DNA from: an uncultured Candidatus Saccharibacteria bacterium
GTDB lineage: Bacteria; Patescibacteriota; UBA1384; 2-12-FULL-50-11
NCBI GenBank assembly: GCA_964599405.1
Contig: CAZRED010000001.1
Span: 149,942 to 213,941 of the forward strand
Length of the DNA: 64,000 nt
Direction of reading: 5' to 3'
The stretch's first letter is position 1. Each line of letters begins with the position of its first letter. Made by a program: the position numbers and the translations under genes. The notes under the pieces were generated by a model. The model was not told where the DNA came from and ran no database searches. It saw only the letters and a list, made by a program, of their open reading frames with translations. Below, one piece after another: positions 25,385 to 48,938 of the stretch.

Positions 25385-25506
25385 GGTTGTTACTTCGTAA
25401 TCAACGCCCTGCAGCTACGTCGGGTAAAGTTATAGCTCTCGGCACGTTAACCAGAATTTAACAACTCCGTGCTATCCTTAATATAATTAAGGAGCCGAAG
25501 ATAACT

Positions 25507-26718: not shown

Positions 26719-26784
26719 TTGTAATAATTCCTGACAATTACCGGACTTCAAAAGACTTGTAATTAACGTAACAAAATAGTTACT

Positions 26785-27516
26785 ATGGTTATGAACCAAC
26801 AAAAAATACTAATGAAAAACATCACATTTGTTGTACTACTCATCGTGACCGTCGTGGCTTTTGTGCTTATTGCGACAGTTAGTAATCTGGTAGCAACCAC
26901 TGTCCCGGGTTTTCCCAACACTAGCTCCACTTCTGATTTTACCCAGACGATTAACCCCGGCACGTTGACAGTGGATATCGTCGACGGCAGTTACGTGGCA
27001 GTTGGTAGCCCGGCCGTAGCGATGAGCGCGGCAACGTTCGGTTTTACCTGTCAGACCACCACTGGCACCTTCGGAACCGGCACCCAGCAAATTTATGTTA
27101 AAAACCCCGACGCTTCCGACACCGGCTGGTCAACTACATTGGCCGCTTCCGCCCCCACCGCTTTTTGGGACAGTGCCGGTACTGATATGGACTTTAACGA
27201 CCCAACAACTGCTGGCTGTACTGATGGTGCCGACGCCGATAGTTTGAAAGGCCAAATGACGGTTGATCCTTCGGTCGGTACATTGGCCGTTGGGCAGTGC
27301 TTAAGCTGTGTGGTCACCAACGTCACCAAAGGATCGCTGGCGGCATTTAACCAAGCCACTCTCGATAGCATCACTATCTTAAGCGGCGCTGCAGGGTCGG
27401 ATGATATCGGCGACTGGAAATTAACCGGTGTATCGATTAGCCAAAAGATCCCGGGCGAACAGCCAGCGGCCAGCGACTACACCATTCCTCTGACACTTTC
27501 GATTGTGGCCATCTAA
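26785..27516 (+). CDS. Small secreted protein with a C-terminal WxL-like module (paralog A)
   Basis: N-terminal TM/signal, then a roughly 170-aa module shared with 27503-28228 and with the C-terminus of the 1914-aa protein. Trp-x-Leu motifs GDWKLTGVS and GWSTTL. Confidence 0.6.
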   Translation: MVMNQQKILMKNITFVVLLIVTVVAFVLIATVSNLVATTVPGFPNTSSTSDFTQTINPGTLTVDIVDGSYVAVGSPAVAMSAATFGFTCQTTTGTFGTGTQQIYVKNPDASDTGWSTTLAASAPTAFWDSAGTDMDFNDPTTAGCTDGADADSLKGQMTVDPSVGTLAVGQCLSCVVTNVTKGSLAAFNQATLDSITILSGAAGSDDIGDWKLTGVSISQKIPGEQPAASDYTIPLTLSIVAI

Positions 27517-28210
27517 AGTTTGGGGGATTATCAAAAACAATACATTCCTCCTCGTCATCATCTCCATTGTCGTGCTGTCGATACCGTTTATTGTTAATGC
27601 CTTAATTACCAACGAAGCCCCACGATTACCAAACACCGCCGACGTTAACTTCACCCATACCATCAACCCCGGCACGTTGACGGTGGATGTTGTGGATGCT
27701 AGTTATGTCGTCGTCGGCAGTCCATCGGTGGCAATAAGCGCCTCAACCTTTGGTTTTACCTGTCAGAGTGCAACTGGGCTTTTTGGTACGGCCACCCAGC
27801 AAATCTACGTCAGAAATCCCGACGCGGCCGATAACGGTTGGGTAACGAGTTTGGCCGCTTCCGTCCCCACCGCTTTTTGGGACAGTGCCGGGACCGATTT
27901 AGACTTCAACGATCCGACGACTGCTGGCTGTACTGACGGCGCTGATACCGATACCTTGAAGGGTCAGATGTCGGTTAACCCAACCGTGGGGACATTGGCC
28001 ATCGGGCAGTGCGCCAGCTGTACTACTACCAACGTCACTAAGGGCTCCTCATCGGCCTACAACGAAGGGACGGTAGACAGCATTACCATTTTGAGCGGCG
28101 CCGCGGGGTCAGATGACATCGGCGACTGGAAATTAACCGGTGTGTCTGTTAGTCAAACTATTCCCGCCGAACAGCCAGCGGCCAGTGATTACAATATCAA
28201 CCTAACTCTT
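26940..28210 (+). repeat. Tandem gene duplication (two roughly 560-bp near-identical coding repeats)
   Basis: 26940-27500 and 27650-28210 encode near-identical modules (TINPGTLTVD...LTLSIVA). Confidence 0.7.
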
Positions 28211-28228
28211 AGTATTGTTGCCAGCTAA
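27503..28228 (+). CDS. Small secreted protein with a C-terminal WxL-like module (paralog B, tandem duplicate)
   Basis: About 80% identical to paralog A over the module. 14-nt overlap with the upstream gene. Confidence 0.6.
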   Translation: MWPSKVWGIIKNNTFLLVIISIVVLSIPFIVNALITNEAPRLPNTADVNFTHTINPGTLTVDVVDASYVVVGSPSVAISASTFGFTCQSATGLFGTATQQIYVRNPDAADNGWVTSLAASVPTAFWDSAGTDLDFNDPTTAGCTDGADTDTLKGQMSVNPTVGTLAIGQCASCTTTNVTKGSSSAYNEGTVDSITILSGAAGSDDIGDWKLTGVSVSQTIPAEQPAASDYNINLTLSIVAS

Positions 28229-28269
28229 CAATAATTAGAGAATAATAATTATATAAAACAGAGGGGATT

Positions 28270-29271
28270 ATGAAAAAACTACATCTAAAAAAACTCTTAT
28301 TGGCAACCAACCTAATGACTGTGCTGTCGTTATTGTCGCCCAACTTTGCCCAGGCAATTGAGTATGGTGGCGTTGGTGGAAAACCGGCCAATCCGATTGC
28401 CGGCAACTCTCGAACCGAGTCAATATTTATCCACACCCTTGAGCCGGGAGCAACCCAAGAAGACGGGGTGCTGGTGGTAAATAATAGCCCCGAGACTAAA
28501 ACCCTGTTGGTCTATGCAGCCGACTCCACTCCTTCCACCGATGGCGCTTTCGCCTGTAAGCAACTAACCGAAGAGAAGACCGACGTCGGTGCTTGGATTA
28601 CCTTAAAAAAGTCAGAGGTAACACTGGAATCCGGTACCAAAGAAACCGTTCCCTTCACCATTCGCACTCCTCTAACCGCCAGCGTTGGCGAACATAACGG
28701 CTGTATCCTGATTCAGGAAAAGAAAGCCGCCGTTGAAGGCCAAACCGGCGCGGCCATATCGATGCGGACCGGTCTGCGCGTCGCTATTACTATTCCTGGA
28801 GATATCCTTAGAAAACTGGAAATTGGCGCCCTGACAGTGGCACCAACAGACGCTGGATTTTCCCTTACCCCCACAGTTAAAAACATTGGTAACGTCTCAA
28901 TTGACGCAAACGTTCGGGTAATAACACGCAATTTCATTGGGATGACGCATTTCACGAACGGCGGAGAGTTTCCGATTCTCCGAGGCGATACCTCACAGTG
29001 GAATTTCGATTTGAAAAGACCGTTTTGGGGCGGTTTTTACCGTTCCACCCCCGGCGTTGAGTACGACGAAAATCCAGAAGCGGGCGTTGGACTAAAAAGC
29101 GGCAAGGCGCTGACTAATTTAACTGGAGCCACCGTTTGGTTCTTTAGTTTCCCAACGCTACCGGCCTTACTAATCGAAATCTTGGTACTACTGTTTATTT
29201 TCCTTGGCTTACCGTTGATCATTCGCCAGATCCGCAAAAATCGCTCAGTGCCTTCAGTGCCGCTAGCTTAG
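28270..29271 (+). CDS. Signal-peptide protein with a C-terminal TM anchor and short basic tail (DUF916/CscA-like architecture)
   Basis: 333 aa. Lipobox-less signal peptide. C-terminal helix FPTLPALLIEILVLLFIFLGLPLII is followed by RQIRKNR. Confidence 0.45.
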   Translation: MKKLHLKKLLLATNLMTVLSLLSPNFAQAIEYGGVGGKPANPIAGNSRTESIFIHTLEPGATQEDGVLVVNNSPETKTLLVYAADSTPSTDGAFACKQLTEEKTDVGAWITLKKSEVTLESGTKETVPFTIRTPLTASVGEHNGCILIQEKKAAVEGQTGAAISMRTGLRVAITIPGDILRKLEIGALTVAPTDAGFSLTPTVKNIGNVSIDANVRVITRNFIGMTHFTNGGEFPILRGDTSQWNFDLKRPFWGGFYRSTPGVEYDENPEAGVGLKSGKALTNLTGATVWFFSFPTLPALLIEILVLLFIFLGLPLIIRQIRKNRSVPSVPLA

Positions 29272-29308
29272 GCCAGCTTGTGCTGGTGGTGGGGCTTTTG
29301 GATAAAGG

Positions 29309-32300
29309 ATGACTAAGCTCCAAATACAACTCCTGCTTGTGATTGGTCTATTGGCGTTGATTGTCAGTGGTTCCTTGGCGTTACGTAAACCGCCCTCAGT
29401 AACTCCGCCCGAAGCTACCTACCGCTACCGCCCACTATCAGAGCTGAAGCTCAATACCACGAATCGGGACAAGTATTTCGTTGGCCAGCACGAAGTGGTT
29501 CCGACGACGGAGCCAATCACGGCGGCTGTGCCACCACTGGCGCACCAAGCTCGGCTCTCTTTGAACAGCGCTCACCCCGGTCTACCAAATACTGGTGCCG
29601 GCGATTTTGATACCTCGATTAAAGCCACTGGCACGGGTTCGATTGCCGAAGCGGTACCGAAAAGCTCCCAGGCCAAAGCGGGTCTGTATCAGCTGAAAGT
29701 AACCGACGGGGTCACTGGGCAGGTAGTTTCTGACCAGACCGTTGCCTGGGGCGTATTAGTTTTTAACTCCGATTACGCCGCCTATCCAATCAACACCAAA
29801 GCCAGACTAGCGATGGCGGTTTTGGACGACCGTGGCAAGATGATCTGTGACGCCGAGCTGACGCTGGCGATCACTGAGCCCAACGGCCGAACTATTACAT
29901 TAAGCACGGCTAATAACCAAATTCTCGTTAATGAGGCCTGTTTTGTCTACGGATTGACCGAAGAGCCAGACTACGTGGCCGAATATTTACCAACCCAAGC
30001 TGGTAACTATCAGGTTGCCTTAACCGCTCGGATCGGTAACGGCGTTAGAGTGCTACACGATCAATTCTCCGTGGTCGAAAACGCCCCGTTCTATCTGCAA
30101 AGGGTTGGTGCTTCCCGAACCTATCCGGCCGCTAGCTATCCCTACACCTTTAACTTTCAACCCACCCAAAGCGGTCGTTACCAATTAACCGAAAACGTGC
30201 CGGGCAGTTTCGAAATACTCGACCTGACGATTGACGGCAACCCCTGCCCGACGGAAAGCTTACTGAACGCCGGAGCTTGCAAGATTGAGGTCTCTGAGGA
30301 CGGCAATGAGAAGCAATTAATCTGGCGGGTCGACGCCCGAGCCAATCGTGATATAAAGATCGCCTATACATTTAAGGGGCCTAGTATTTCGCCGTATTTA
30401 TTCCGGCTTGGACCGGCCGAAATCACCTCACCCGACGACTCAATTTGGACGGAGACACGTTCTTGGCTAATTGCCTCCGATGCCGCTTGCCAATCGAACG
30501 GCACTGGCGGCGGCAACTCCAACGCATCTGGCTCTTGGCAGACCTGCGGTGGGACGACCCCGCAGGCCGCTGACTCAATTACCATTCTGAGCGGCGACAC
30601 CATTACTATGAACGCCGCCTTGAGCGTCACCAGCATTGTTATCAACAACGGCGGCATTTTTACCAACAACGCCAGCCCCTTCACCTTAACGCTCACCGGT
30701 ACCACTGGCACCCTCTTCACCTTGGGCGCAACCGGTACCTTCACGCCCGGCACTTCGATTAGCGTCACGATGAACCCAAATGCTTCAATTACCACTACCT
30801 CCGGTACCATTACTTTTTTTGACTTAAACTTTACGCCGACAATCTCTGCCAGCAACAAAACCTATACGATGGGTTCCGGCGCTCTGACCATTAACGGCAA
30901 CTGGGCTATTACCGGTACGGCCGCGAGTAACGCCTTAACCTTAACGGTTAATATGAGTGCCAACGTGACGGTGGCTTCGACAAAAACCACGACGATTGGC
31001 CCGGCGTCGTTAACTAACAGAGCCACTTTGGACGTACAGCCCTCACTGGCCAGCTACAACCTAACGACCGGTACCCTGGCTATCACCGCCCTAGGTACGC
31101 TAAACGCCGCCAATGCCACCTCGGCGATTACGGTTGCCAACAGCTACAGCAATAGCGGCATTTTCACCGCCGGTTCTAGCACGGTTAGCTTCACCGCTAC
31201 TGCCACTGGTAAAACTTTGAGCGGTACACTATCCGGCGCTAACGGTAAATTCTTCAACGTCATTTTCAACGGCGTCGGCGGTGCCTGGGCATTCGGTGCT
31301 GCCGTCGAAGTAGCTAACGACTTTACCGTTACAAATGGGGCCGTCACTGCTAGTAACAATAATCTCTCCGTCACTCGTGACTTTACACTGGCTTATACCG
31401 CCGGTGTTTCTTACGTGGCTGGATCGTCAACCGTTACCGTCGCCAGACACTTCAATGACCCTGGCGTCAAATACGTTTCTAACACTTCCGAGCTGGCTCT
31501 GGACGGCACGGGCACTTTAACCACCGCTACAACTGCTTCCCTTTACGATGTATCGCTTGGCCAATCCGGCAACACAACAACACTGGCAATGGCCGGAGCG
31601 ATCGACAACTTTAACTACTACGCTAGCGACACAGATCATTTCCGGGTCCTGCTCTTCGACGGGAGTGTTGTCAAATACAAAAGCGCCGAGATAACCCCGC
31701 CCGGCACCGGTGTCAGAAGCTATACTCCGCCATCCCCTGTCCCCTACAAAGCTGGCTGGAGTATCGGTATCTATACCGTCGGTAATGGCGTCATTCCCTA
31801 CACCGGTAGCGGCGGCACACACTACTACCAAGCCAATAACTCTGGCCAACCAAACGAGGAAGCTACGATTTCCTGGCAAGGAACAACAGTCCGAACCTAT
31901 TCGATTAACGGCGAGGTCAACGGCGTCCGGGTAATCGGCAATGACGCTATCAGCCGGCCTTCGCTCGACTCATTCACTAATACCTCCCTGAAAGACACCA
32001 ATAACAACGCTACGGGGGTGGCGGAAGGATTATTAACTGTGACCAACGGCGCTACCTTGAACGGCGGTACGGTTACCGGCACTGATACCGGACTATTTCT
32101 ACCGTGTAGCACAACTTGTTCCGGCCACCTGGTCTTTAACTCACCGACCACCTTGAGCGGCTCCGGCGACAACCGGGTAGTTTACTCAACCGGCAACTCA
32201 ATAACCTATACCGTTACTGGGGGAACCTACGGCAGTTGGAATATTGCAATGGAGACAACCACCCTGTCCGATACGCCGATAACGTTCGAGCTTGGGGGAA

Positions 32301-35053
32301 ATATTATCACCGACGGGTTTGTCGCCCTTCAAGGGTCGCCCCTGGGTGGGAGCAATAGCTTCAACACCGCCGGTTTCAATATGACCGCACTGCGTTTTGA
32401 CGCTGGCAGCGAAAACCAGACCGGTAGTTGGGTCGTTAATCTTGGCGCCTCAACAATTACCCTGGACTCGACTAGCGACTCCTTTGGCGTAGCCAGCAAC
32501 GGCGGCTCCCATACCTTCAACCTCTCTACTTCCTCTGTCTCCACGACTGGGGATATCCGGTTTATTAACGGTACCGGTACAGTCGCCGCGTCTGGCAGTA
32601 CTTCCACGATTACGATGACACCAGCCGCTTCGACCACCCGGACTTTCACCACTAACGCCCAAACGATTGATAACTTTGTCGTTAACGGCGGTAACGGTGC
32701 CGCCACTGTCAACCTGGACGGCAATTTAATTGCCTCTGACAACTTAACGATTACCGCTGGTACTTTGGACGTTACGGCAACGCCGTACAGCGTCACAATC
32801 GGCGGCAACTACTCTAACTCCGGCAGCTTTACTCCCCGGTTGGGTACTGTGACTTTTAATGCTACCGACGCGGGTAATACTCTGGCGGGCACGATGACCG
32901 GTGCGTCAGCCTTTTATAATCTCGTTTTCGACGGCGTTGCTGGCGGCTGGAGCTTTAGCGCCGCGGTGACGGCAACGAACGACTTTACCGTTACCAACGG
33001 GGACGTTACCGCCAATAACAATAACTTGACTGTTACCAGGGACTTTACGCTAACTAACGTGGTGGGCGTTTCCTACACGGCCGGCTCCTCCACCATCACC
33101 GTTAGCCGCGACTACAATAACCCCGGCGACCGGTTTGTTCGTGGCACATCATTAGTTATCCTTGACGGCACCGGCAACGTTAATACCACTGGCGGTAAAT
33201 TTAATAACCTTTCTCTGGCTTACACCTCACAAGTCTCAACCTTCAATACCACCAACTTCGCGGTTTACGGCGTTCTCACCTTTAACGGCGGTACCGCCAA
33301 CGGGAGTGTTGACGGTTACGTTTCGCTGGAGCGATCTGCTAGCGCTACCCCAATTGTGTTCGCATCAGCCACCACCCTCTCCGGCACTAGTAGGACGCTT
33401 TTTCATAACAACAACGCCAATAGCCTGACTACCACCATCGCTGGTGGTAACTACGGGACGTGGAATATTATTTTGTTTACTACCCTTGGGCCTGCCACCA
33501 GTAGTATCTACCAGTTAGCCGGTAATATTACTAACACTGGTTACGTTACCCTCCAGGCCGTTGGGGGATCGACGGGCAACGTTTTTAACACCCAAAACTT
33601 CAACATTACATCGCTACGGTTTGACCTCGGCACCCAGTCCCGAACCGGACCGTGGACTGTCAATTTTGGGTCTTCGACGCTGACCCTTTCTGATACTGCT
33701 GATTCGTTTGGCGTTGCTAGTAACGGCGGCTCTCATACCTTCAACCTTTCAACCGCCGCCATCAACACCGTTGGGAACGTGCTGTTTGCCAACGGCACCG
33801 GCACCGTGTCCGTGAGTCAGGGCACCTCGACCGTGACTTGGGCGCACCCAACTGGTACCAAAACTTACGCCCCCAACAGCCAATCTCTGCACAATCTCAC
33901 GCTCAACAGCGCCGCTGGTACCCTTCAACCCAATGGTGCCGTTATTGCTACCGGCAACTTTATTATCACCGCCGGCAGCTACGACACCGTTGCTGGCCAA
34001 GACTACGCCTTAACGATCGGCGGCAACTACACCAACTCCGGCACATTTAATGCGCAGGGTGGAACGGTTACCCTAAACGGCTCCGCTACCCAAACGCTTT
34101 CTGGCACGATGGTCGGCGGTAGCGCATTCAATAACTTAACGATTACCAATAATTCTGGCACATCGGCTAGCGACTGTGAGCGAACAAGTTTTGTCCCATC
34201 AGTGGACTTTAATGCCGCTGCTTGGACAAGCGGTAACTACACCATCACTACGGCCAATGTTCGGGTCGAGTACAACTCCGGCTCTACCTACGCCTTCACC
34301 AACATCAATTGGAACGGTCAGACGATTGGGACACAGATTTACTTCCGCAACTCGGTCGCCAGCGACACCTGGCTGTTGGATGTTTCGGGAACGCAGACAG
34401 CTGTCTCCTACGTTAACGTCTCCCGGTCTAACGCCGCTAGTGGCCTTCAGATTGTTGCTAGCGACGGTACCAACACTGACTGCAACAACAATAGTAACTG
34501 GCTTTTCGTTTCTGGTGCCTTATCGACCGATATCGTTAACGCTGGCGGCACTCCAATTGATTCACCATCTATCGCCATGGGTGCAGCCACATTCTCCCTT
34601 TTATATCAAACAGTTAGCGGTATCTTTGGCGCCACTGATGAAAAAGTCAGAGTTAGTAACACCACCGTTAACCCCCAATGGAGCTTGACGATTGCCGCCA
34701 GTAGCGGTCCGACTGGGCTCTGGTCGGCTGGGACACCGAAGTATGACTTTAACGACCCAACTGGGAGTGCAGGAGACGGCGGCGATGGCGACGCTTACGG
34801 GGGACAGCTGACAATGGATGTGACTGGTGGAACCCTTGGTGGAACCTGCTCGACGACCGGAATAACTAAAGGATCATCTGCTGGTTTTTCTGAAGGAGTG
34901 GTCAACTCAATCACCCTGCTCACGGCCAGTGGCACGGCCGACGTTAGTTGCTATTGGGATTTAACCGGCGTGGACGTACTTCAAACCCTACCTTCCGAGC
35001 AAGCAACTAGCAGCTACTCCATCAATATGACTCTCACTATTACCGCCAATTAA
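29309..35053 (+). CDS. Giant (1914 aa) repeat-rich surface protein ending in the WxL-like module
   Basis: Signal/TM at the N-terminus. Long Thr/Gly/Asn-rich beta-solenoid-like repeats with two roughly 400-aa internal duplications. The last roughly 170 aa are homologous to the two small paralogs (YWDLTGVDV, QWSLTIAAS). Confidence 0.7.
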   Translation: MTKLQIQLLLVIGLLALIVSGSLALRKPPSVTPPEATYRYRPLSELKLNTTNRDKYFVGQHEVVPTTEPITAAVPPLAHQARLSLNSAHPGLPNTGAGDFDTSIKATGTGSIAEAVPKSSQAKAGLYQLKVTDGVTGQVVSDQTVAWGVLVFNSDYAAYPINTKARLAMAVLDDRGKMICDAELTLAITEPNGRTITLSTANNQILVNEACFVYGLTEEPDYVAEYLPTQAGNYQVALTARIGNGVRVLHDQFSVVENAPFYLQRVGASRTYPAASYPYTFNFQPTQSGRYQLTENVPGSFEILDLTIDGNPCPTESLLNAGACKIEVSEDGNEKQLIWRVDARANRDIKIAYTFKGPSISPYLFRLGPAEITSPDDSIWTETRSWLIASDAACQSNGTGGGNSNASGSWQTCGGTTPQAADSITILSGDTITMNAALSVTSIVINNGGIFTNNASPFTLTLTGTTGTLFTLGATGTFTPGTSISVTMNPNASITTTSGTITFFDLNFTPTISASNKTYTMGSGALTINGNWAITGTAASNALTLTVNMSANVTVASTKTTTIGPASLTNRATLDVQPSLASYNLTTGTLAITALGTLNAANATSAITVANSYSNSGIFTAGSSTVSFTATATGKTLSGTLSGANGKFFNVIFNGVGGAWAFGAAVEVANDFTVTNGAVTASNNNLSVTRDFTLAYTAGVSYVAGSSTVTVARHFNDPGVKYVSNTSELALDGTGTLTTATTASLYDVSLGQSGNTTTLAMAGAIDNFNYYASDTDHFRVLLFDGSVVKYKSAEITPPGTGVRSYTPPSPVPYKAGWSIGIYTVGNGVIPYTGSGGTHYYQANNSGQPNEEATISWQGTTVRTYSINGEVNGVRVIGNDAISRPSLDSFTNTSLKDTNNNATGVAEGLLTVTNGATLNGGTVTGTDTGLFLPCSTTCSGHLVFNSPTTLSGSGDNRVVYSTGNSITYTVTGGTYGSWNIAMETTTLSDTPITFELGGNIITDGFVALQGSPLGGSNSFNTAGFNMTALRFDAGSENQTGSWVVNLGASTITLDSTSDSFGVASNGGSHTFNLSTSSVSTTGDIRFINGTGTVAASGSTSTITMTPAASTTRTFTTNAQTIDNFVVNGGNGAATVNLDGNLIASDNLTITAGTLDVTATPYSVTIGGNYSNSGSFTPRLGTVTFNATDAGNTLAGTMTGASAFYNLVFDGVAGGWSFSAAVTATNDFTVTNGDVTANNNNLTVTRDFTLTNVVGVSYTAGSSTITVSRDYNNPGDRFVRGTSLVILDGTGNVNTTGGKFNNLSLAYTSQVSTFNTTNFAVYGVLTFNGGTANGSVDGYVSLERSASATPIVFASATTLSGTSRTLFHNNNANSLTTTIAGGNYGTWNIILFTTLGPATSSIYQLAGNITNTGYVTLQAVGGSTGNVFNTQNFNITSLRFDLGTQSRTGPWTVNFGSSTLTLSDTADSFGVASNGGSHTFNLSTAAINTVGNVLFANGTGTVSVSQGTSTVTWAHPTGTKTYAPNSQSLHNLTLNSAAGTLQPNGAVIATGNFIITAGSYDTVAGQDYALTIGGNYTNSGTFNAQGGTVTLNGSATQTLSGTMVGGSAFNNLTITNNSGTSASDCERTSFVPSVDFNAAAWTSGNYTITTANVRVEYNSGSTYAFTNINWNGQTIGTQIYFRNSVASDTWLLDVSGTQTAVSYVNVSRSNAASGLQIVASDGTNTDCNNNSNWLFVSGALSTDIVNAGGTPIDSPSIAMGAATFSLLYQTVSGIFGATDEKVRVSNTTVNPQWSLTIAASSGPTGLWSAGTPKYDFNDPTGSAGDGGDGDAYGGQLTMDVTGGTLGGTCSTTGITKGSSAGFSEGVVNSITLLTASGTADVSCYWDLTGVDVLQTLPSEQATSSYSINMTLTITAN

Positions 35054-35081
35054 CAGACTTTCCTCTCCATTAATTTACGTA

Positions 35082-36089
35082 GTGAGTTTGTTTCGTTATC
35101 CTAATATTGGTAGGGGTGTAATCGATTCCATGAGAACTGGCCGTTTTAAACTGTTTGCTTTGATACTAGGTCTGACCATAGTAGCGTTTGGGAGTGGCAT
35201 AAAAACCGTCGCCGCCCAAGACAGTCCCAGCGTCTTATATGTCCCCTTAATCGGCCTAACATCGGTACCAGATCCGTTGGCACTACCGGATGGGGCGGGT
35301 GATGTAACGTATCATTACGCAGTTAAAAACTTTCTTAGCGAGGCGGCTTTAACTAACGTCCAAGTCGTCGACGACAACTGTGCCTCCGTTAAATTTATCG
35401 AAGGCGACGATAATAACGACTCCGAGCTTGATTACGACGAAACCTGGCGCTACACCTGTACCACTAAAGTTTCCGTCACCACTCAAAGTACGGCCACGGC
35501 CACCGGTACTGCCAATAATTTAACCGCGACTCACAAAGCCTACGTTACCGTTATTGTTGGTCTAAGTGACCCAGCCCCACTTGTTAGTATTGTTAACATC
35601 ACCAAAGTTGCCTATCCATTGTCCCTACCGGCCGAAGGAGGCGACATTACCTTTATCTATAAGGTTAACAATCCAGGCGTCGTGTCATTAAGTGATGTCA
35701 CTGTCGTTGATGATAGGTGTGGGGCGATGTCCGGCAAACTCGGGGACAGGAACGGCAACGGCCTGCTGGATACCAATGAGGTTTGGATTTACACCTGTAC
35801 AATGACTCTGAGAGAGACTACTACCAATACCGCCACCGTTACCGCTTTTGCTAATGGATTAATGGCCACGAATAACTTTTCCCTGACCGTCAAGGTTGAC
35901 ACCCTAGTCGATCAGGCGCTCATCAAACTTCCCGATACCGGCAAAGATGCGCTATTAAAAATTATGGTTTGGGAAATCTTATTAGGTATATTGGTAACTC
36001 TACTCACCATATCTATTGTTTTAAACCGAAAGAATCGACTGCGAAGCGTTGAAATTACACAAAATATCTTAGACGGGGGAAGAAAGTAA
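35082..36089 (+). CDS. LPXTG-anchored surface protein with two tandem roughly 110-aa repeats
   Basis: C-terminal LPDTG, hydrophobic helix, then NRKNRLRS. Repeats contain VVDDNC...WRYTCT and VVDDRC...WIYTCT. The likely start is the internal Met at 35130. Confidence 0.65.
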   Translation: MSLFRYPNIGRGVIDSMRTGRFKLFALILGLTIVAFGSGIKTVAAQDSPSVLYVPLIGLTSVPDPLALPDGAGDVTYHYAVKNFLSEAALTNVQVVDDNCASVKFIEGDDNNDSELDYDETWRYTCTTKVSVTTQSTATATGTANNLTATHKAYVTVIVGLSDPAPLVSIVNITKVAYPLSLPAEGGDITFIYKVNNPGVVSLSDVTVVDDRCGAMSGKLGDRNGNGLLDTNEVWIYTCTMTLRETTTNTATVTAFANGLMATNNFSLTVKVDTLVDQALIKLPDTGKDALLKIMVWEILLGILVTLLTISIVLNRKNRLRSVEITQNILDGGRK

Positions 36090-36132
36090 CCATGAATTGT
36101 TTAGAGGACTAAATGAATAGTTTGTTACACAA

Positions 36133-37044
36133 ATGAAAAGACCAAAATTAGTATTAATAATTATTGTGCTGGTTGTTGTAGCCGCGTTGGGGGCCGGAGT
36201 TTATTTCAAGCTGATTCCCCGTCTGTTCCAAAAACCCGTCGCCACAGTAGTCGATCAGCTATTCGGTTGGAAGTTTCCAATTACCAAATTCCCACTGGTT
36301 GGGCCGGATGGCCAACTGGCGTACTCCAACATCCGTGATCCTGGCGGTATACCACAAGGGCTACCAGTTCGCCTGAAAGTTCCCGTTATCGGCGTCGATT
36401 CAGCTATTGAAGACGCGCTGATTACCCCGGACGGAAGAATGGACGTGCCAATCGGCTCGGTTAATGTTGCCTGGTTTTCTCTTGGCCCTCATCCCGGCGA
36501 CGAAGGAAGCGCGGTGATCGGTGGGCATTTTGGGATTAGAGACGGGGTGCCGTTCGTCTTCTACAACTTAGACAAGCTAAAGGTTGGCGACAAGGTATAT
36601 GTGGTCGACGACAAAGACCAGACATTGGCTTTCCAGGTCAGGGAAATTAAATTATTCGATCGAAACGCTGATGCAACGACGGTTTTTACCTCCGATGACG
36701 GGTTGGCTCATCTTAACCTGATTACTTGCGAAGGCATTTGGAACCAAGTTGACGGTTCGTATCCCGAGCGGCGAGTAGTGTTTACCGATGCCATACCATC
36801 AGAAGGGGCAGTAACCGTTACTCCTAAGTCTCCAACGGCGGCGATTCCCACGCCAAACCCAACACCAACTCCGACACCAACTCCGACAACAGAAAATACA
36901 GTATCTACAGCTGCCTTGCTTCAGAGCGTGAATCGGGCAATAAAAAGTGCGGCCAGTACGCCAATCGACGCACTAATCACTTTCACCCTACTAGCTTCGA
37001 TAGCGTATATGGCCACCAAAATCGTCAGGCTCCGCAGAGCATAG
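36133..37044 (+). CDS. Sortase family transpeptidase
   Basis: N-terminal TM. Catalytic His in GGHFG, TLxTC-type motif LNLITCEG, Arg in RRVVFTD. Pro/Thr-rich linker and C-terminal TM. Confidence 0.75.
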   Translation: MKRPKLVLIIIVLVVVAALGAGVYFKLIPRLFQKPVATVVDQLFGWKFPITKFPLVGPDGQLAYSNIRDPGGIPQGLPVRLKVPVIGVDSAIEDALITPDGRMDVPIGSVNVAWFSLGPHPGDEGSAVIGGHFGIRDGVPFVFYNLDKLKVGDKVYVVDDKDQTLAFQVREIKLFDRNADATTVFTSDDGLAHLNLITCEGIWNQVDGSYPERRVVFTDAIPSEGAVTVTPKSPTAAIPTPNPTPTPTPTPTTENTVSTAALLQSVNRAIKSAASTPIDALITFTLLASIAYMATKIVRLRRA

Positions 37045-37060: not shown

Positions 37061-38032
37061 CTATTTAGTTGTTAAATTCCACAGAAACTCAATTGCTCGA
37101 TTCTCTGCCCAGTGATGGTCGGGGTCGCCGTTTTTGGACTGACTAATAAATCCACCGTGGCCACCGCCATTGGTGATGATTAACTGGACGTTCGGGTTGT
37201 TGTCTACCCCATCAAACGAGCGGGCGGGGATTACCACATCGTCAGCGCTCTGAATAATCAGGGTGGGAACGGCAATGTTTGGCAAAAACGGCCGGGCGCT
37301 GGCCTTGGCGTGATAGTCGCCGGCATCAATAAAACCGTTATGGGGAGCACAGAACCGATCGTAATCCCCCAGTGTTTTAATGTGCTTAATGGCCTGGATA
37401 TCGTACCTTCCCGGAAAAAGACGGCTCCGAGTGCGCAGCGACGACATCTGCCAATACAACATCAGCCAACGATAGATGGCCGGGGCCTTGTTATCGACAG
37501 AATCAACAGCGGCGGCTAGGTCAATTAGCGGTGAAATTCCGACTGCTCCAATTAGTTGCTTCGGAGCGTCCTGGCCCCATTCGCCAACCGCTTTTAGGCA
37601 GGCGTTGCCGCCGTAGGAAAAACCCATCAGCCCAATTTTCGGCAGTGAATCTTCCCTAATTAACTCTTCAATCACTATGCGCAGATCGGCACTCTGGCCG
37701 GCGTGAGAGAGGGTTTTACTGTATTTCTCACTGCCGCCGCCGTTGCGTAAATTAACCCTGACCACGTTGAAACCGCGGGTGTAGGCTTTGGCGGTGGTGC
37801 CTCGAACGTATGGGCTGATAGTCGAACCATTGAGCCCGGCAATGATAACTAAAGTGGGGGAGGTAGTTTTATCAGCCTGCCAAGAGCATTCCCCAACTAG
37901 TTGAGAGCCATCGGGCAGTTGAAAACGGCGATCTTTCGACGGAAAAAACCTAATTGGCCTGGGCATCAGCACGCTGCCGATTGTTTGGAGATGCGGGCTT
38001 TTTAACCATTTGGCTACGACAAAATTATTCAT
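37061..38032 (-). CDS. Alpha/beta-hydrolase (YheT/ABHD-type)
   Basis: Nucleophile elbow GFSYGGN. Asp and His positions are consistent with the fold. Confidence 0.65.
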   Translation of the reverse strand: MNNFVVAKWLKSPHLQTIGSVLMPRPIRFFPSKDRRFQLPDGSQLVGECSWQADKTTSPTLVIIAGLNGSTISPYVRGTTAKAYTRGFNVVRVNLRNGGGSEKYSKTLSHAGQSADLRIVIEELIREDSLPKIGLMGFSYGGNACLKAVGEWGQDAPKQLIGAVGISPLIDLAAAVDSVDNKAPAIYRWLMLYWQMSSLRTRSRLFPGRYDIQAIKHIKTLGDYDRFCAPHNGFIDAGDYHAKASARPFLPNIAVPTLIIQSADDVVIPARSFDGVDNNPNVQLIITNGGGHGGFISQSKNGDPDHHWAENRAIEFLWNLTTK

Positions 38033-38117
38033 TTAGTCCTCTAAACAGTTCATTTAGTCCCCTAAACAGTTCATTTAGTCCTCTAAACAATTCATTTAGT
38101 CCTCTAAACAATTCATT
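38029..38117. repeat. 21-bp tandem repeat, 4.2 copies (TCATTTAGTCCTCTAAACAGT)
   Basis: Copies at 38029, 38050, 38071 and 38092. The first copy contains the hydrolase start codon and SD on the minus strand. Confidence 0.85.
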
Positions 38118-38189
38118 ATATTTGGTGTAGTATACATCGTTAGCTCTAGGACTTACCGGTACTTGAATTCTACAGCTGCGGGCTGGAAA

Positions 38190-39470
38190 TTAGCGAGTAT
38201 AAACTTGAGCGGCGGCGGTGAAGGCAGATACTTCGCTGGCCATTTTGCCGGGGAATGTTTCTACCTTCAACTTGTCGGGCGCAGTCATTTGCAGCAACGC
38301 AACTCCCTTAACCTGATTGCCAGCCTGTAATTTCGGGTTCGCAATGACATGGTCGAGCATCCAGCTCGCACCACTGTCGCCATCGATGTAGCCGCCCTCG
38401 ACAAGCTCGTACTTAACGAGCCCTGTCTCCATGCTAACGACGGCGGGATCTGGGGCATTGCCCTTGACCATAAATTGACTGGCCCCGGTCTTCCAGTTGC
38501 CGACCGAAAATTTAATGGCGGTTGGGTCTAAATAGTCGTAGGCAATCGCCAAATGGCCATCCCAATAACGCGAAAGGGCCTGGCCTTGGATAGCTGGCGG
38601 TCCGTTAAATCCATTCGTTCCTTCTTGGAACCAGTTGCCAACGAGCTTGCCAGCAATATCGTAATTGATTTTTCCTGTCCGCGGTTCAACAACGCGCGCT
38701 GCTTTGGCCAAGAGCTGTGCCCGGAGCCCTACTTCAAAATATTTGAACATATCATCAAGGTAAAAACGGGATTCCTGGTCCTTATAGGAAGCGGTATTGG
38801 CGACAAAATCTGGTTCTTTTTCAAAATTCCAGACTGCAAAATCAACGGTCTGGCCGCCAATCCGACCGACTAACTGACCGGCCTTGATTGGAATGCGAAC
38901 GGACTTACTCTCGAAGCCTTCAAGTTTGCCGACAACCGCGGTCAGCTCTGGTGAGAGCGAGGTCAAAAGGTCGTAATAACTATAAAACGTGCACGTATGC
39001 TCAAACTGCATCTGATACTCGTCAGTGACGTGATTCGGGTCTTGATTGTCACCGACGGCCTGACCGCGATGGGAAATACTAACGATAAAGCCGTCGGCGA
39101 TAGCGTAAACAGGATATTTATCGCGCTCTGACCTAAAAATGATGGGAGAATAGTAGCCGTGATCGGTTGGCATCACGTGCGCACCGACCATAATACCGTA
39201 GGGCTGAATAATGCCGATATCGGCGACATCCATCGGGGCGTGCGTAAACACGACGGTACCGCTTCCCTGACATTTCCCTTGACTCATGTTCCGGCTAAAT
39301 GGATTATCTTTCGCGTCTCCGGTGGTGGTTGTCTCTTGGGTCGTGGGGTTGTTGGTTACCGTCAGTTTACGAGTACTCCTGTACACAAAATAGCCGGCCG
39401 TCAGAAGAATAACGCCACTCACGACCACCACAATCAGCCAACGCTTCATTTTGTGAGCGCTAGCGAACAA
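38190..39470 (-). CDS. N-terminally anchored extracellular protein, unknown function
   Basis: TM helix at residues 10-30. No recognisable motif. Confidence 0.4.
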   Translation of the reverse strand: MFASAHKMKRWLIVVVVSGVILLTAGYFVYRSTRKLTVTNNPTTQETTTTGDAKDNPFSRNMSQGKCQGSGTVVFTHAPMDVADIGIIQPYGIMVGAHVMPTDHGYYSPIIFRSERDKYPVYAIADGFIVSISHRGQAVGDNQDPNHVTDEYQMQFEHTCTFYSYYDLLTSLSPELTAVVGKLEGFESKSVRIPIKAGQLVGRIGGQTVDFAVWNFEKEPDFVANTASYKDQESRFYLDDMFKYFEVGLRAQLLAKAARVVEPRTGKINYDIAGKLVGNWFQEGTNGFNGPPAIQGQALSRYWDGHLAIAYDYLDPTAIKFSVGNWKTGASQFMVKGNAPDPAVVSMETGLVKYELVEGGYIDGDSGASWMLDHVIANPKLQAGNQVKGVALLQMTAPDKLKVETFPGKMASEVSAFTAAAQVYTR

Positions 39471-40311: not shown

Positions 40312-41253
40312 ATGAGGGTTCTGAACATGACTAAGCCTAGTAAGTATTCAACAATCAATGTATTGATCGCTTCCTTGGTGGTTGGACTCGCTGGTGTAGT
40401 TGTAGCATTCGCGGCCGGCCCCACAACCGTCAATCTTGGCACAGCCGAACCTTTTGCCATCCTAGCTGGGACTCCTGATATTACTGACTCTCCGACATCG
40501 ACTATTACTGGAAACGTTGGGTTGTACCCAGGCCCTGCTTCCGGTATCGGGCTACTTTGTTCACAAGTAACCGGGACAATCTATGGGCGCGATGGCACGG
40601 GTGACCCGTGTTTTACGGTCAACGATCCGTTACTCCTGGCGGCCAAGAACGACTTAACTGCCGCGTTTACCGATGCAGCCGGGCGAACACCGGTTATTAT
40701 TGTACCAACCGAGCTCGGCGGAACGACTAAATTTGCAGGTGTTTACGCCTCTGACGACACTACGTTTCAGATTTCGGCACCAATCCCCCTCATCCTCGAT
40801 GGACAAGGCGATCCCAATGCCGTTTTCATCTTCGAAATGAATGCGGAGGGAACCGGACTGACTGTCGGACCGGGTAGTGTGGTACAGCTCACGGGCCAGG
40901 CCCAGGCCTGCAACGTCTTTTGGCGAGTAGACACAGCTACTATCGACAGCACCGCGGTATTCAAGGGTACTATCCTGGCTCTGACCTCGATTACGGTGGC
41001 TAACGGCGCCAACATTGAAGGAAGACTATTGGCTCGTAACGGTAGCGTCACCTTAATTAACGACACCATCACCAAACCGACTTGTGTAGCAGCGGCTACA
41101 GTCACTCCGCCGGCAACTACGCCATCTCTCCCCGACACTGGTCTAACTCCCGATGGCAGCAACAGTGCCGTGTGGAGCGTTATTATCCCAGTTTGGGCCA
41201 TTGCCGGTCTGTTCTCGTTCTGGTTAGTTCGACGCAAACAGCGGACGATTTAG
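40312..41253 (+). CDS. LPXTG-anchored ice-binding-like (DUF3494) beta-helix protein
   Basis: AEPFAILAGTPDIT...GNVGLYPG and CNVFWRVDTATIDSTAVFKGTILALTSITVANGANIEGRLLARNGSVTL are DUF3494 hallmarks. C-terminal LPDTG, TM, then RRKQRTI. Confidence 0.7.
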   Translation: MRVLNMTKPSKYSTINVLIASLVVGLAGVVVAFAAGPTTVNLGTAEPFAILAGTPDITDSPTSTITGNVGLYPGPASGIGLLCSQVTGTIYGRDGTGDPCFTVNDPLLLAAKNDLTAAFTDAAGRTPVIIVPTELGGTTKFAGVYASDDTTFQISAPIPLILDGQGDPNAVFIFEMNAEGTGLTVGPGSVVQLTGQAQACNVFWRVDTATIDSTAVFKGTILALTSITVANGANIEGRLLARNGSVTLINDTITKPTCVAAATVTPPATTPSLPDTGLTPDGSNSAVWSVIIPVWAIAGLFSFWLVRRKQRTI

Positions 41254-41301
41254 TCTAGGCATTAAATAAGAGGCGCTAATATATTTACCTGGAGGGCCGG
41301 T

Positions 41302-41922
41302 ATGGGTCTATCACCAGCTCCATTAAAACGAGTGCTATTAGCTATCAAGCTGGTGGGGGTGTCAGCGGGAATTGTCGTCTCTTTGGCAATTTACTCTGCC
41401 AAAAATACCCCCGACTATGAAAACGTCTTAGTGCCCGTTGAGAAAATCGTCGTTCCTTCGGTGGTAGCGCCGGCTCTTTTGGCTTCTCCGTTGCGACTGA
41501 AGATTCCTAAGATTGAGGTTAACGCCGTCATCGAATACGTCGGTCTGAACACTGATGGAGCAATGGGAGTGCCGAAAGATCCCGCCGATGTTGCTTGGTT
41601 CAATCTCGGGGCACGACCCGGTGAGGTTGGTAGCGCGGTAATCGCCGGGCACTACGGGTGGAGAAATAATATTCCAGCGGTATTTGACGATCTCCATAAA
41701 TTGCGTCCTGGTGATACCTTAGTAATCGAGGACGACAGAGGAGCAAGCACCACCTTCGTGGTGCGGGAAAGCCGCCGGTACGACCCGACAGCGGACGCCT
41801 CGGAGATATTTTTGCAAAGCGACGGGATAGCTCACCTTAACCTAGTTACCTGCGAAGGGGTGTGGAACGTCGCTACTGATAGTTACTCTCGGCGGCTGGT
41901 GGTATTTACCGACAAACAGTAG
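41302..41922 (+). CDS. Sortase family transpeptidase (second copy)
   Basis: Paralog of 36133-37044 (IAGHYGW, NLVTCEG, RRLVVFTD). N-terminal TM. Confidence 0.75.
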   Translation: MGLSPAPLKRVLLAIKLVGVSAGIVVSLAIYSAKNTPDYENVLVPVEKIVVPSVVAPALLASPLRLKIPKIEVNAVIEYVGLNTDGAMGVPKDPADVAWFNLGARPGEVGSAVIAGHYGWRNNIPAVFDDLHKLRPGDTLVIEDDRGASTTFVVRESRRYDPTADASEIFLQSDGIAHLNLVTCEGVWNVATDSYSRRLVVFTDKQ

Positions 41923-47870: not shown

Positions 47871-48938
47871 ATGAATGACGTCTATTACCTAATCGGCGGA
47901 GTGATTTTGGGCGCGGGGATTGTCTACGCGGTAATGCGTCACCGTCAAACCGATTTCTCCAAAATTAGCGAACAATTCCTTGGTTTAGCCAAAGAACGAT
48001 TGGGCGCGGAAAAAGAGGTGATCAGAACCGATCTTGAAGGCAAAAAAGACGCGATTAAAACCCTGGTAGACGAAATCCGCAAACAGCTCAAAGACACCGA
48101 CGACAAATTGCGAGCCAGCGACAAAGAGCGGATTAATTCGTTTTCCACCCTGAAAGCCGAGCTTGAGAACCAACGTCAACTAACCCACGAACTACGGGGC
48201 AGTGCCGAAGATTTAAAGCGCGTGCTCTCCAATAATCAGATGCGCGGCGCTTTCGGCGAACGAGTGGCCGAAGACCTGCTAAAAATGGCCGGTTTTGTAA
48301 TTGGCCAGGACTACACCGTTCAAACCCAAGCTGGCTCCACTCGCCCGGATTTAACGCTGCTAATGCCGGACGGCACGAAAGTCCAAATTGACGTTAAGTT
48401 CCCTTACTCCAACCTCCAACGCTTTACCGAAGCTAAGACCGAAGAAGAAAAGCAAAAATACATCAAACTCTTCAAGGCCGACGTTAAAGAAAAAATTAAG
48501 CAAATCGCCAGCCGCGACTACATTAACCCGGACGAAAAAACGGTGGATTTTGCGATTGCTTTTATCCCCAACGAAATGATTTTCAGCTTCATCTACGACC
48601 AGATGAACGATATTTGGGAGGATGGCATGCATAAAAAAGTAGTATTGGCTGGACCGTTTAGCTTTACGGCCATGTTGCGCTTAATCCGCCAAACGCACTC
48701 GAATTTCCAGTTCCAGGAAAATATCCACCAGATTATTTCGTTAATCCAAAAATTCCGTGGCGAGTACGACAAATTTAGCGAGTCGGTGGATGTGCTTGGT
48801 GCCCGGTTGGAATCAGCCAGCAAACAGTTTGAAGTGGTTTCCTCCACTCGTTCCCGCCAGCTTGGCCGAGTGATGGACCAAATTGACAACCAGCAGCTTC
48901 CCGCCGCGCCAAAAAGCGACCGACTTCTGGAGGAGTAA
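47871..48938 (+). CDS. rmuC: DNA recombination protein RmuC
   Basis: N-terminal TM, coiled-coil, and the RmuC core (RPDLTLLMPDGTKVQIDVKFPYSN, FIPNEMIFSF). Confidence 0.8.
   Translation: MNDVYYLIGGVILGAGIVYAVMRHRQTDFSKISEQFLGLAKERLGAEKEVIRTDLEGKKDAIKTLVDEIRKQLKDTDDKLRASDKERINSFSTLKAELENQRQLTHELRGSAEDLKRVLSNNQMRGAFGERVAEDLLKMAGFVIGQDYTVQTQAGSTRPDLTLLMPDGTKVQIDVKFPYSNLQRFTEAKTEEEKQKYIKLFKADVKEKIKQIASRDYINPDEKTVDFAIAFIPNEMIFSFIYDQMNDIWEDGMHKKVVLAGPFSFTAMLRLIRQTHSNFQFQENIHQIISLIQKFRGEYDKFSESVDVLGARLESASKQFEVVSSTRSRQLGRVMDQIDNQQLPAAPKSDRLLEE

What the first reader, a model, noticed from the sequence alone, without database searches (positions are those of the whole stretch)
38029..38117. Tandem 21-bp repeat (4 copies) duplicating the RBS and start codon of the hydrolase gene
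On the coding (minus) strand each unit reads ...TTTAGAGGACTAAATGAACTG..., i.e. SD GAGGA plus ATG. The proximal copy initiates the alpha/beta-hydrolase. Each upstream copy creates a 6-codon mini-ORF (MNCLED*). The unit length is 21 bp, a multiple of 3. Copy-number change by slipped-strand mispairing would add or remove decoy initiation sites, giving a possible phase-variable translational switch. Alternatively it is a ribosome stand-by array.
Basis: seen in the sequence. Interest (0 to 1): 0.55.

Follow-up and report, generated by a model that had tools for sequence, protein, structure and literature searches.

The report
Tandem mini-gene insert before hydrolase start
A 21-base cassette that carries its own start codon, stop codon and ribosome-binding site sits in four tandem copies at the start of a hydrolase gene in an uncultured Patescibacteria genome. 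The same cassette lies in front of two unrelated genes, so it is a small dispersed insert that probably lets translation pass through, and nothing shows it to be an on/off switch.

Summary
The repeat is real: 4.3 copies of a 21-bp unit at 38027-38117. On the minus strand each unit reads ATG AAY TGT TTA GRG GAC TAA, and every TAA abuts the next ATG. The last ATG (38032) starts the alpha/beta hydrolase.

- **It is an insertion.** Four relatives (87-67% protein identity) lack it. With 84 nt removed, the window aligns with them through a conserved -10 box (GTATACT) and the ancestral ATG.
- **The unit is dispersed.** A 28-nt identical copy lies inverted in front of the neighbouring sortase gene (36092-36119). 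Another lies between two co-directional genes in a different Patescibacteria species, where a relative has the stop directly against ATGAAT with no unit.
- **Both checkable targets begin ATGAAT**, which also ends the unit.

Best reading: a self-contained mini-cistron copied into ATGAAT starts by microhomology, then expanded by slippage. The hydrolase is still translated through the proximal Shine-Dalgarno site and stop-start reinitiation.

Copy-number change cannot shift the frame, so any effect would be graded. Copy-number variation could not be tested. How the unit spread is unexplained.

The parts
38033..38116 (-). Four tandem 21-nt units (38096-38116, 38075-38095, 38054-38074, 38033-38053). 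Each is ATG-AAY-TGT-TTA-GRG-GAC-TAA. Together they form an 84-nt in-frame insertion at the ancestral start of the hydrolase.
   Evidence: absent in four relatives and colinear once removed
38129..38134 (-). -10 box TATACT, 12 nt upstream of the first ATG. The GTATACT core is invariant in all relatives, where it lies 11-14 nt before the hydrolase ATG (near-leaderless promoter).
   Evidence: leaderless-type geometry is common in this window
38115..38120 (-). Perfect TATAAT overlapping the first ATG. It is specific to this window and could be an alternative -10 that would start the mRNA inside unit 1.
   Evidence: read; relatives have CTAATG or similar here; not called by the promoter scan
37061..38032 (-). 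Alpha/beta-hydrolase gene (YheT-like, 323 aa), intact. Its start codon is the ATG that follows unit 4.
   Evidence: Pfam Abhydrolase_1/Hydrolase_4; homologues
36092..36112 (+). Solitary copy of the unit, inverted relative to the array, 2 nt after the stop of the DUF7507 surface-protein gene. The identity runs over 28 nt (36092-36119, ATGAATTGTTTAGAGGACTAAATGAATA).
   Evidence: (inverted repeats I1-I4, 32 nt, 88-97%)
36113..36136 (+). Second mini-ORF ATG AAT AGT TTG TTA CAC AAA TGA (MNSLLHK*). It is fed by the unit's SD, and its stop overlaps the sortase ATG (ATGA).
   Evidence: the sortase N-terminus at 36133 is full length against homologues; relatives have a 6-nt gap or an overlap here
36133..37044 (+). 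Sortase gene, convergent with the hydrolase. It has no SD of its own.
35082..36089 (+). DUF7507/CLIPPER_2 surface-protein gene, directly upstream of the sortase. The two genes are tightly linked in relatives.
38190..39470 (-). 426-aa secreted protein of unknown family, co-directional with and upstream of the hydrolase. It is absent from this position in relatives L001 and L005. No terminator-like site was found between it and the array.

Best explanation
The array is a lineage-specific 84-nt insertion made of four copies of a 21-nt self-contained mini-cistron: ATG, five codons, TAA, with a GAGG Shine-Dalgarno core 5 nt before the following ATG.

Origin (inferred). The unit was copied into the hydrolase start from another copy in the same genome by template switching on the 6-nt microhomology ATGAAT, which both begins the target gene and ends the unit. 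A locus with 1.3 copies can then expand by ordinary replication slippage, here to 4.3 copies.

Function (inferred). The ancestral gene is near-leaderless, with a conserved -10 box 11-14 nt before the ATG and no SD. In this genome the ancestral ATG now opens mini-ORF 1. Ribosomes reach the hydrolase in two ways. Some initiate directly at the SD-led proximal ATG. Others terminate at each TAA and reinitiate at the abutting ATG, passing along the array as a relay. The insert is therefore largely transparent to translation, and it converts a leaderless-type gene into an SD-led one. That may matter because a new gene now lies upstream on the same strand with no detected terminator. Copy number could tune output by degrees but cannot switch the gene on or off.
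For: **Shown**
- The array is real and non-random.
- Unit anatomy and reading frames were read directly from the sequence.
- Four relatives at 87, 78, 68 and 67% protein identity lack the repeat. blastn homology to the closest one stops exactly at 38033.
- The window with 84 nt removed aligns colinearly with the relatives through the invariant GTATACT and the ATG.
- An identical 28-mer lies in front of the sortase, and the similarity does not extend significantly beyond it.
- An identical 28-mer lies in another Patescibacteria species between a PRC-barrel gene and a tRNA_bind gene, as TAG|unit|ATGAATATT. A relative there has TAG|ATGAATATT with no unit.
- The checkable native targets read ATGAAT: ATGAATATT in L010 for the tRNA_bind gene, and ATGAATAAT in L006 for the hydrolase (L001 has ATGGAT). 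Only 5 of 55 gene starts in the window begin ATGAAT.
- The window is SD-poor and rich in -10 boxes about 7 nt before ATG. The unit's SD is of moderate strength.
- In relatives the sortase and tRNA_bind genes abut or overlap the upstream gene. In the loci that carry the unit, every junction is still +2, 0 or -4 nt.

**From the literature**
- Reinitiation needs overlaps or very short gaps. An untranslated gap of about 20 nt nearly abolishes it, and the last 15 nt of an upstream ORF are enough for coupling (PMC10666635).
Against: - No expression data exist. The transcription start site, translation of the mini-ORFs and reinitiation are all inferred.
- The stop-start relay geometry is not statistically striking on its own. 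Shuffled inserts keep some relay in about 11% (sortase) and about 8% (hydrolase) of trials under lenient rules.
- Microhomology-guided copying does not by itself explain why two different species carry a 100% identical 28-mer at non-orthologous loci.
- The anti-SD of this organism is unknown (no 16S rRNA in the window), and some Parcubacteria lack it (PMC9297842).
- The ancestral hydrolase start may have been ATGGAT rather than ATGAAT (L001).
Confidence: 0.5

Rival explanations
1. Contingency locus. Slipped-strand changes in unit number occur often and set hydrolase output by adding or removing competing or stand-by initiation sites. This would be a heritable, reversible graded switch.
For: Perfect head-to-tail 21-bp repeats are substrates for RecA-independent slippage (established knowledge). 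The array has clearly expanded from one unit, since single copies exist at the other two loci. Each unit carries a usable SD and ATG.
Against: The unit length is a multiple of 3 and each unit is self-contained, so no frame or proximal-site change is possible. Two substitutions distinguish the copies, which argues against rapid turnover. No copy-number polymorphism could be observed. The three assemblies that carry the single-copy locus are 100% identical over more than 5 kb, so they represent one strain and say nothing either way.
Confidence: 0.15
2. Binding-site array. Each unit carries the palindrome TTTAG-AGGA-CTAAA. As RNA it is a small hairpin with GGA in the loop over the SD, which resembles a CsrA-type site. 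As DNA it is a 14-bp dyad repeated every two helical turns, which resembles an operator. A regulator would bind cooperatively and repress the hydrolase, the sortase and the tRNA_bind gene together.
For: The palindrome and the AGGA loop can be read from the sequence. The isolated unit folds better than its shuffles (-3.4 kcal/mol, z = -2.4). The 28-mer is identical at three loci. TAACTGA repeats just upstream of start codons have been proposed to bind Csr-, S1- or Csp-type proteins (PMC4679880).
Against: The hairpin is marginal, and the whole leader folds no better than shuffles (z = -0.47). There is no Rfam match. No CsrA-like motif was found in the window or the fetched loci, though that search has low power. 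No regulator gene is adjacent. Two of the three sites lie between the stop and start of co-directional genes, which is an unusual place for an operator.
Confidence: 0.1
3. Inverton. The inverted 28-32-nt copies at 36092-36123 and 38022-38117 are recombination sites. Inversion of the 2-kb sortase-hydrolase segment would swap which gene lies behind the surface-protein operon and which lies behind the TATACT promoter and the 426-aa gene.
For: The inverted repeats are 88-97% identical and flank a convergent gene pair. They include the start codons, so an inversion would make clean swaps. A large serine recombinase is encoded in the window at 62004-63359.
Against: The recombinase is 24 kb away, next to a tRNA gene and accessory genes, so it looks like an island integrase. 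No recombinase is adjacent to the repeats. The inverted orientation follows simply from the unit always pointing the same way as its gene, and here the two genes converge. The third copy, in another species, has no inverted partner on its 10.8-kb contig. The present hydrolase orientation is the ancestral one.
Confidence: 0.05
4. Tiny mobile element or footprint. The unit is moved by an enzyme, or is left behind by a larger element that targets ATGAAT. It spread horizontally between Patescibacteria species, and its translation-friendly design is what lets insertions at gene starts survive.
For: The 28-mer is identical at non-orthologous loci in two species, whose tRNA_bind proteins fall in different 90%-identity clusters. 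Close relatives have precise empty sites. The checkable targets share ATGAAT.
Against: Only three loci are known. One exact hit appears among 185,579 species-representative genomes, and none in JGI metagenomes, IMG/VR, phage or plasmid collections. No HUH or DDE transposase is present in the window. Twenty-one nucleotides is far below any known autonomous or non-autonomous element. Shared ancestry at one locus plus ectopic copying within a genome could explain the data without any mobility.
Confidence: 0.15

Closest known systems
Translational coupling by termination-reinitiation at overlapping or abutting stop/start codons (ATGA, TAATG, UAAAUG), including short upstream ORFs
   Same: Every junction in the array and at the two other loci is +2, 0 or -4 nt. 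An SD lies within the end of the upstream ORF. The mini-ORFs (18 nt plus stop) are longer than the 15 nt shown to be enough for coupling (PMC10666635).
   Different: Here the upstream ORF is not a gene. It is a 6-codon cassette repeated four times in tandem, dispersed to other loci, and inserted into a gene whose relatives are near-leaderless.
TAACTGA heptamer direct repeats just upstream of start codons in Beggiatoaceae, Cyanobacteria and Bacteroidetes (PMC4679880)
   Same: Both are short tandem direct repeats within a few nucleotides of start codons, found in front of unrelated genes and in unrelated lineages. The mechanism of spread is unknown in both, and a translational role has been proposed.
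   Different: Those units are 7 nt long, occur in over a hundred sets per genome, and carry no start codon or SD. Here the unit is 21 nt, is a complete mini-cistron, and is known at only three loci.
Simple-sequence or minisatellite phase variation in 5' regions (for example Haemophilus and Neisseria contingency loci)
   Same: A tandem repeat lies between the promoter and the coding sequence and is prone to slippage.
   Different: Contingency repeats act by shifting the frame or changing promoter spacing or UTR structure. This unit is neutral for the frame and recreates the same initiation site in every copy, and no polymorphism has been observed.
5'-terminal uAUGs on SD-led mRNAs (PMC4965119)
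   Same: An AUG at or near the 5' end, here the ancestral near-leaderless start, lies upstream of an SD-led start on the same mRNA. It could recruit ribosomes.
   Different: The transcription start site is not mapped here, and several SD-led mini-ORFs lie in between.
REP/BIME and other small palindromic dispersed repeats
   Same: A short extragenic unit with a small palindrome, found singly and in tandem, at different loci.
   Different: Copy number is very low. The palindrome is weak (-3.4 kcal/mol). The unit always points the same way as a start codon and is in register with it. No RAYT-type gene was seen.

Membership tests
Tandem-repeat contingency (phase-variation) locus | Tandem repeat tract in the promoter, 5' region or ORF of the regulated gene | tested here: met
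   4.3 x 21 bp between the -10 box and the hydrolase ATG
Tandem-repeat contingency (phase-variation) locus | A change in repeat number switches expression, by a frame shift or altered promoter spacing | tested here: not met
   The unit is 21 nt (a multiple of 3) and carries its own stop, SD and start. The proximal site is the same at any copy number, and the array lies downstream of the -10 box. A graded effect is not excluded.
Tandem-repeat contingency (phase-variation) locus | Copy-number polymorphism among reads or strains | not testable with these tools
   No other assembly of this species could be retrieved. The three assemblies of the single-copy locus are the same strain.
Termination-reinitiation coupled upstream ORFs | Stop of the upstream ORF overlaps or lies within a few nt of the downstream start | tested here: met
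   TAA|ATG at all four junctions. At the sortase the junctions are TAAccATG, TAA|ATG and ATGA. In L007 they are TAG|ATG and TAA|ATG. About 8-11% of shuffled inserts also give a relay.
Termination-reinitiation coupled upstream ORFs | SD-like element upstream of the restart codon | tested here: met
   GAGG or GGGG lies 5 nt before the ATG, at -5.8 to -6.4 kcal/mol against an assumed canonical anti-SD
Termination-reinitiation coupled upstream ORFs | The upstream ORF is translated, and downstream translation depends on it | not testable with these tools
   Needs Ribo-seq, toeprinting or reporter mutants
Inverton (invertible DNA switch) | Inverted repeats that flank the segment | tested here: met
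   Arms 36092-36123 and 38085-38116 are 32 nt long and 97% complementary
Inverton (invertible DNA switch) | A dedicated site-specific recombinase encoded nearby | tested here: inconclusive
   None lies within about 20 kb. One large serine recombinase is at 62004-63359, beside a tRNA gene.
Inverton (invertible DNA switch) | Both orientations present in the population | not testable with these tools
   Needs the raw reads
REP/MITE-like dispersed repeats | Many copies per genome | tested here: not met
   Two sites in 64 kb. One exact site in the species-representative MAG of the other species, and no other genome among 185,579 species.
REP/MITE-like dispersed repeats | Stable palindrome or terminal inverted repeats | tested here: inconclusive
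   A stem of up to 8 pairs (five Watson-Crick pairs from the TTTAG/CTAAA core, extended by two G-U wobbles and one A-U), -3.4 kcal/mol. It is significant for the isolated 28-mer but not in context.
Iteron or operator array | Tandem 17-22-bp direct repeats next to a replication-initiator or regulator gene, or in an origin | tested here: not met
   The repeat length fits, but the neighbours are a hydrolase, a sortase and a secreted protein. No Rep or regulator gene is present.
Known structured RNA (riboswitch, leader, sRNA) | Match to a curated covariance model | tested here: not met
   Only tRNAs reach gathering score. The only sub-threshold hit is noise at E = 0.94.

The most novel reading that the evidence does not exclude
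The 21-nt unit is a previously undescribed kind of micro-element. It would be a translationally transparent mini-cistron (start, SD, stop) that copies itself into ATGAAT start codons, moves between Patescibacteria species, and can amplify in place. In SD-poor, leaderless-type genomes it would convert a gene to SD-led, coupled initiation.
Probability: 0.15. Interest if true: 0.75.

Novelty: new variant of a known kind. Interest (0 to 1): 0.42.

Why it matters
If the relay reading is right, this is a natural experiment in how a gene start is rewired. A near-leaderless gene acquired an SD-led, reinitiation-coupled start through a 21-nt cassette, and the cassette was then amplified. The same cassette has landed precisely at start codons of unrelated genes and appears in two species. 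That hints at a homology-guided, and possibly mobile, way of spreading ribosome-binding sites in SD-poor CPR genomes. If instead it is only a tolerated insertion, it is a neat but ordinary minisatellite. In either case it warns annotators that tandem in-frame start-stop cassettes can sit on top of true gene starts.

Tried and rejected
- **Same-species assemblies.** Exact-protein look-ups for the window's hydrolase and sortase found nothing on record, even for the 100% identical database entries. Copy number in other assemblies could not be compared.
- **Public collection scans.** Two complementary 20-21-nt patterns gave no match in JGI metagenomes. One was also run against IMG/VR and gave none. 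BLAST of a two-unit query gave no match in phages and only sub-significant chance hits in plasmids. In GTDB representatives there was one real locus and one chance hit inside a 418-aa archaeal ORF.
- **Structured RNA.** There is no Rfam family, and the leader folds no better than its shuffles.
- **Copying of a longer segment between the two window sites.** Similarity beyond ATGAATA is not significant (p = 0.3). A 12-nt upstream match is marginal (p = 0.02) and out of register.
- **MNSLLHK* as a frameshifted old sortase N-terminus.** Rejected, because the sortase at 36133 is already full length against 15 homologues.
- **Relay geometry as proof of selection.** Shuffled inserts keep a relay in 8-11% of trials, so it is not decisive.
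- **CsrA search by motif.** Nothing was found, but the search has low power.
- **Copy-number invariance of the single-copy locus across three assemblies.** They are 100% identical over more than 5 kb, so they are one strain and not independent.
- **The open third frame through the array, (NELFRGL)x4, in frame after the stop of the 426-aa gene.** Judged to be chance.

Full report
**Observation.** The repeat exists as described. Tandem Repeats Finder gives 38027-38117, period 21, 4.3 copies, 94% matches and score 161, the strongest array in the window. The degenerate unit matches four times head to tail on the minus strand, and none of 100 shuffles gave a match.

On the coding (minus) strand the units are 38096-38116, 38075-38095, 38054-38074 and 38033-38053. 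Each reads ATG AAY TGT TTA GRG GAC TAA. The peptides are MNCLED*, MNCLED*, MNCLGD* and MNCLED*. Each TAA directly abuts the next ATG, and the fifth ATG (38032) opens the 323-aa alpha/beta hydrolase. That start agrees with the public gene call (P0001) and with the N-termini of relatives. A GAGG core (GGGG in unit 3) lies 5 nt before each following ATG. The first ATG has no SD in front of it.

**Organism and translation style.** The closest proteins come from Patescibacteria (CPR) metagenome-assembled genomes. In a crude gene set of 55 starts, about one fifth have a clear SD. Many have a TAnnnT box about 7 nt before the ATG, which is leaderless-type geometry. The unit's SD ranks about 15th of 55 (-5.8 to -6.4 kcal/mol against an assumed canonical anti-SD). 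The 16S rRNA is not in the window, and some Parcubacteria lack the anti-SD (PMC9297842), so SD use here is an assumption.

**The array is an insertion.**
- Four related hydrolase loci were recovered: L001 (87% protein identity), L004 (78%), L005 (68%) and L006 (67%). None has the repeat.
- All four have an invariant GTATACT -10 box 11-14 nt before the ATG and no SD, so the gene is near-leaderless in relatives.
- In the window the same TATACT (38129-38134) lies 12 nt before the first ATG. blastn homology to L001 stops exactly at 38033.
- With the 84 nt removed, the window aligns colinearly with all four relatives through the -10 box, ATG AAT and AAT TTT GTC.
- The ancestral start codon is therefore now the start of mini-ORF 1, and the hydrolase body is reached only after four stop-start junctions.
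- Relative to L001 and L005, the window also has an extra co-directional gene (426 aa, no known family) between the hydrolase and the divergent Transgly_assoc/YGGT pair. No terminator-like site lies between that gene and the array.

**The unit is dispersed.**
- A fifth copy lies on the plus strand at 36092-36112, and the identity runs over 28 nt (ATGAATTGTTTAGAGGACTAAATGAATA). It starts 2 nt after the stop of the DUF7507 surface-protein gene.
- It is followed by a second mini-ORF (MNSLLHK*) whose TGA overlaps the sortase ATG. In relatives the two genes are 6 nt apart or overlap.
- A scan of one genome per species (185,579 species) for a 20-nt core found only one further true locus, in another Patescibacteria MAG (L003/L007). 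There the unit sits exactly between the TAG of a PRC-barrel gene and the ATG AAT ATT of a tRNA_bind gene.
- A relative of that locus (L010, 85% protein identity) has TAG|ATGAATATT with no unit.
- The second genome hit is a chance match inside an archaeal ORF.
- JGI metagenomes and IMG/VR gave no match, the phage collection gave none, and the plasmid collection gave only sub-significant chance hits.
- L007, L008 and L009 are 100% identical over more than 5 kb, so they count as one strain.
- The two species differ. No protein within 90% identity of L007's tRNA_bind protein exists in the database that also holds the window's proteins.

**What the three sites share.**
- The unit always points the same way as the downstream gene and is in register with its start.
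- The native targets that can be checked read ATGAAT (ATGAATATT in L010; ATGAATAAT in L006, although L001 has ATGGAT). This hexamer is also the last six bases of the unit in the rotation TGTTTAGAGGACTAAATGAAT. Only 5 of 55 starts in the window begin ATGAAT.
- All junctions keep stop-start distances of +2, 0 or -4 nt.
- Similarity between the two window sites does not extend beyond ATGAATA (p = 0.3).

**Mechanism, and how far it is supported.** The insertion and its dispersal are shown. The rest is inferred.

- *Origin.* The shared ATGAAT suggests homology-guided copying, meaning a template switch onto another copy and back. A locus with 1.3 copies can then expand by ordinary slippage. The two substitutions among the four copies show that the array is not brand new and has not been homogenised recently.
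- *Function.* Reinitiation after termination needs overlapping or nearly abutting stop and start codons. An untranslated gap of about 20 nt almost abolishes it, and the last 15 nt of an upstream ORF are enough (PMC10666635). A random 21-nt insert between coupled genes, or after a leaderless start, would therefore be harmful. A unit that is itself a translated mini-ORF ending in TAA|ATG, with an SD 5 nt upstream, would pass ribosomes on. The hydrolase can also be initiated directly at the proximal SD-led ATG, for example on read-through transcripts from the new upstream gene.
- *Limit.* The relay geometry alone is not statistically strong. Between 8 and 11% of shuffled inserts keep some relay.

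**Rivals.**
- *Contingency switch.* It is possible only as a graded effect, because the unit is frame-neutral and recreates the same proximal site. Polymorphism could not be tested.
- *Binding-site array.* The TTTAG-AGGA-CTAAA dyad, or a GGA-loop hairpin, is compatible with the sequence. However, the hairpin is marginal (-3.4 kcal/mol) and the leader folds no better than shuffles (z = -0.47). No Rfam family matches, and no regulator or CsrA-like gene was seen.
- *Inverton.* The two window sites do form 88-97% identical inverted repeats around the convergent sortase/hydrolase pair. That follows from the unit always pointing the same way as its gene. The only recombinase is a large serine recombinase 24 kb away, beside a tRNA gene.
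- *Micro mobile element.* The 100% identical 28-mer in two species at non-orthologous loci remains unexplained. This keeps the mobile-element reading alive at low probability.

**Comparison with known systems.** It works most like termination-reinitiation-coupled upstream ORFs. Its genomic behaviour resembles the TAACTGA start-proximal direct repeats of Beggiatoaceae and Cyanobacteria, whose spread is also unexplained (PMC4679880). It fails the defining switch feature of contingency loci and the copy-number feature of REP-like repeats. It lacks the neighbouring genes of iterons or operators, and it matches no known RNA family.

**Verdict.** I rate it a new variant of a known kind, namely a tandemly amplified, dispersed start-stop mini-cistron inserted at a gene start. 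Interest is moderate and depends on whether more copies exist in the complete genomes and whether copy number varies in the reads.

Noticed in passing
window 19688-23278 (copies at 19688, 20876, 21470, 22158, 22601, 22909, 23237): A dispersed promoter-like repeat, CTCGACATTYCCAGGTTC-N5-6-TA(C/G)AAT, lies in several cases exactly 7 nt before an ATG. It precedes a DUF305 / DUF2200 / ion-channel / P-type ATPase cluster. It looks like a shared leaderless promoter or operator for a metal-homeostasis-type regulon.
   Followed up: partly
window 62004-63359 (-), with tRNA at 57922-58008: A large serine recombinase (Resolvase + Recombinase + Zn_ribbon_recom, 451 aa) lies at the end of a block of accessory genes (M15 dipeptidase, NUDIX, hydrolase, S51 peptidase, deaminase, Ham1) next to a tRNA gene. 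This may be an integrated island.
   Followed up: no
window 19472-36909 compared with L001 3950-5151: In the closest relative, the tRNA region homologous to window 19472-19664 lies about 1 kb from the hydrolase. In the window it is 17 kb away. The region from 19.7 to 36.9 kb (metal cluster, 1914-aa surface protein, DUF7507 protein, sortase) is therefore either lineage-specific or deleted in L001. Homology resumes at 36909, inside the 3' tail of the sortase ORF.
   Followed up: partly
window 38190-39470 (-): A 426-aa protein with an N-terminal membrane anchor has no Pfam or PDB sequence match. It is inserted between the hydrolase and the Transgly_assoc/YGGT pair relative to L001 and L005.
   Followed up: partly
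window 38030-38189 (-), frame of the 426-aa gene: The reading frame that follows the TAA stop of the 426-aa gene stays open for 54 codons through the array, reading (NELFRGL)x4, and ends at TAA just inside the hydrolase start. This is probably chance. It would matter only if the stop were read through.
   Followed up: partly
window 19473-19511 and 19627-19665: The 3' end of the tRNA at 19438-19509 is partly duplicated 154 nt downstream (74% identity). L001 shares this duplication. It may be a remnant att-like site.
   Followed up: no
window 29309-35053 (+): A 1914-aa surface protein with long internal repeats (about 1.2-kb period, 72% identity) lies upstream of the DUF7507 gene and the sortase. 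A second Ice_binding-like protein plus sortase pair lies at 40312-41922.
   Followed up: no
window 47871-48938 (+): An RmuC-family protein is encoded here. From my own knowledge, the E. coli member has been linked to limiting inversions at short inverted repeats. It is mentioned only because of the inverted 28-mers; no link is shown.
   Followed up: no
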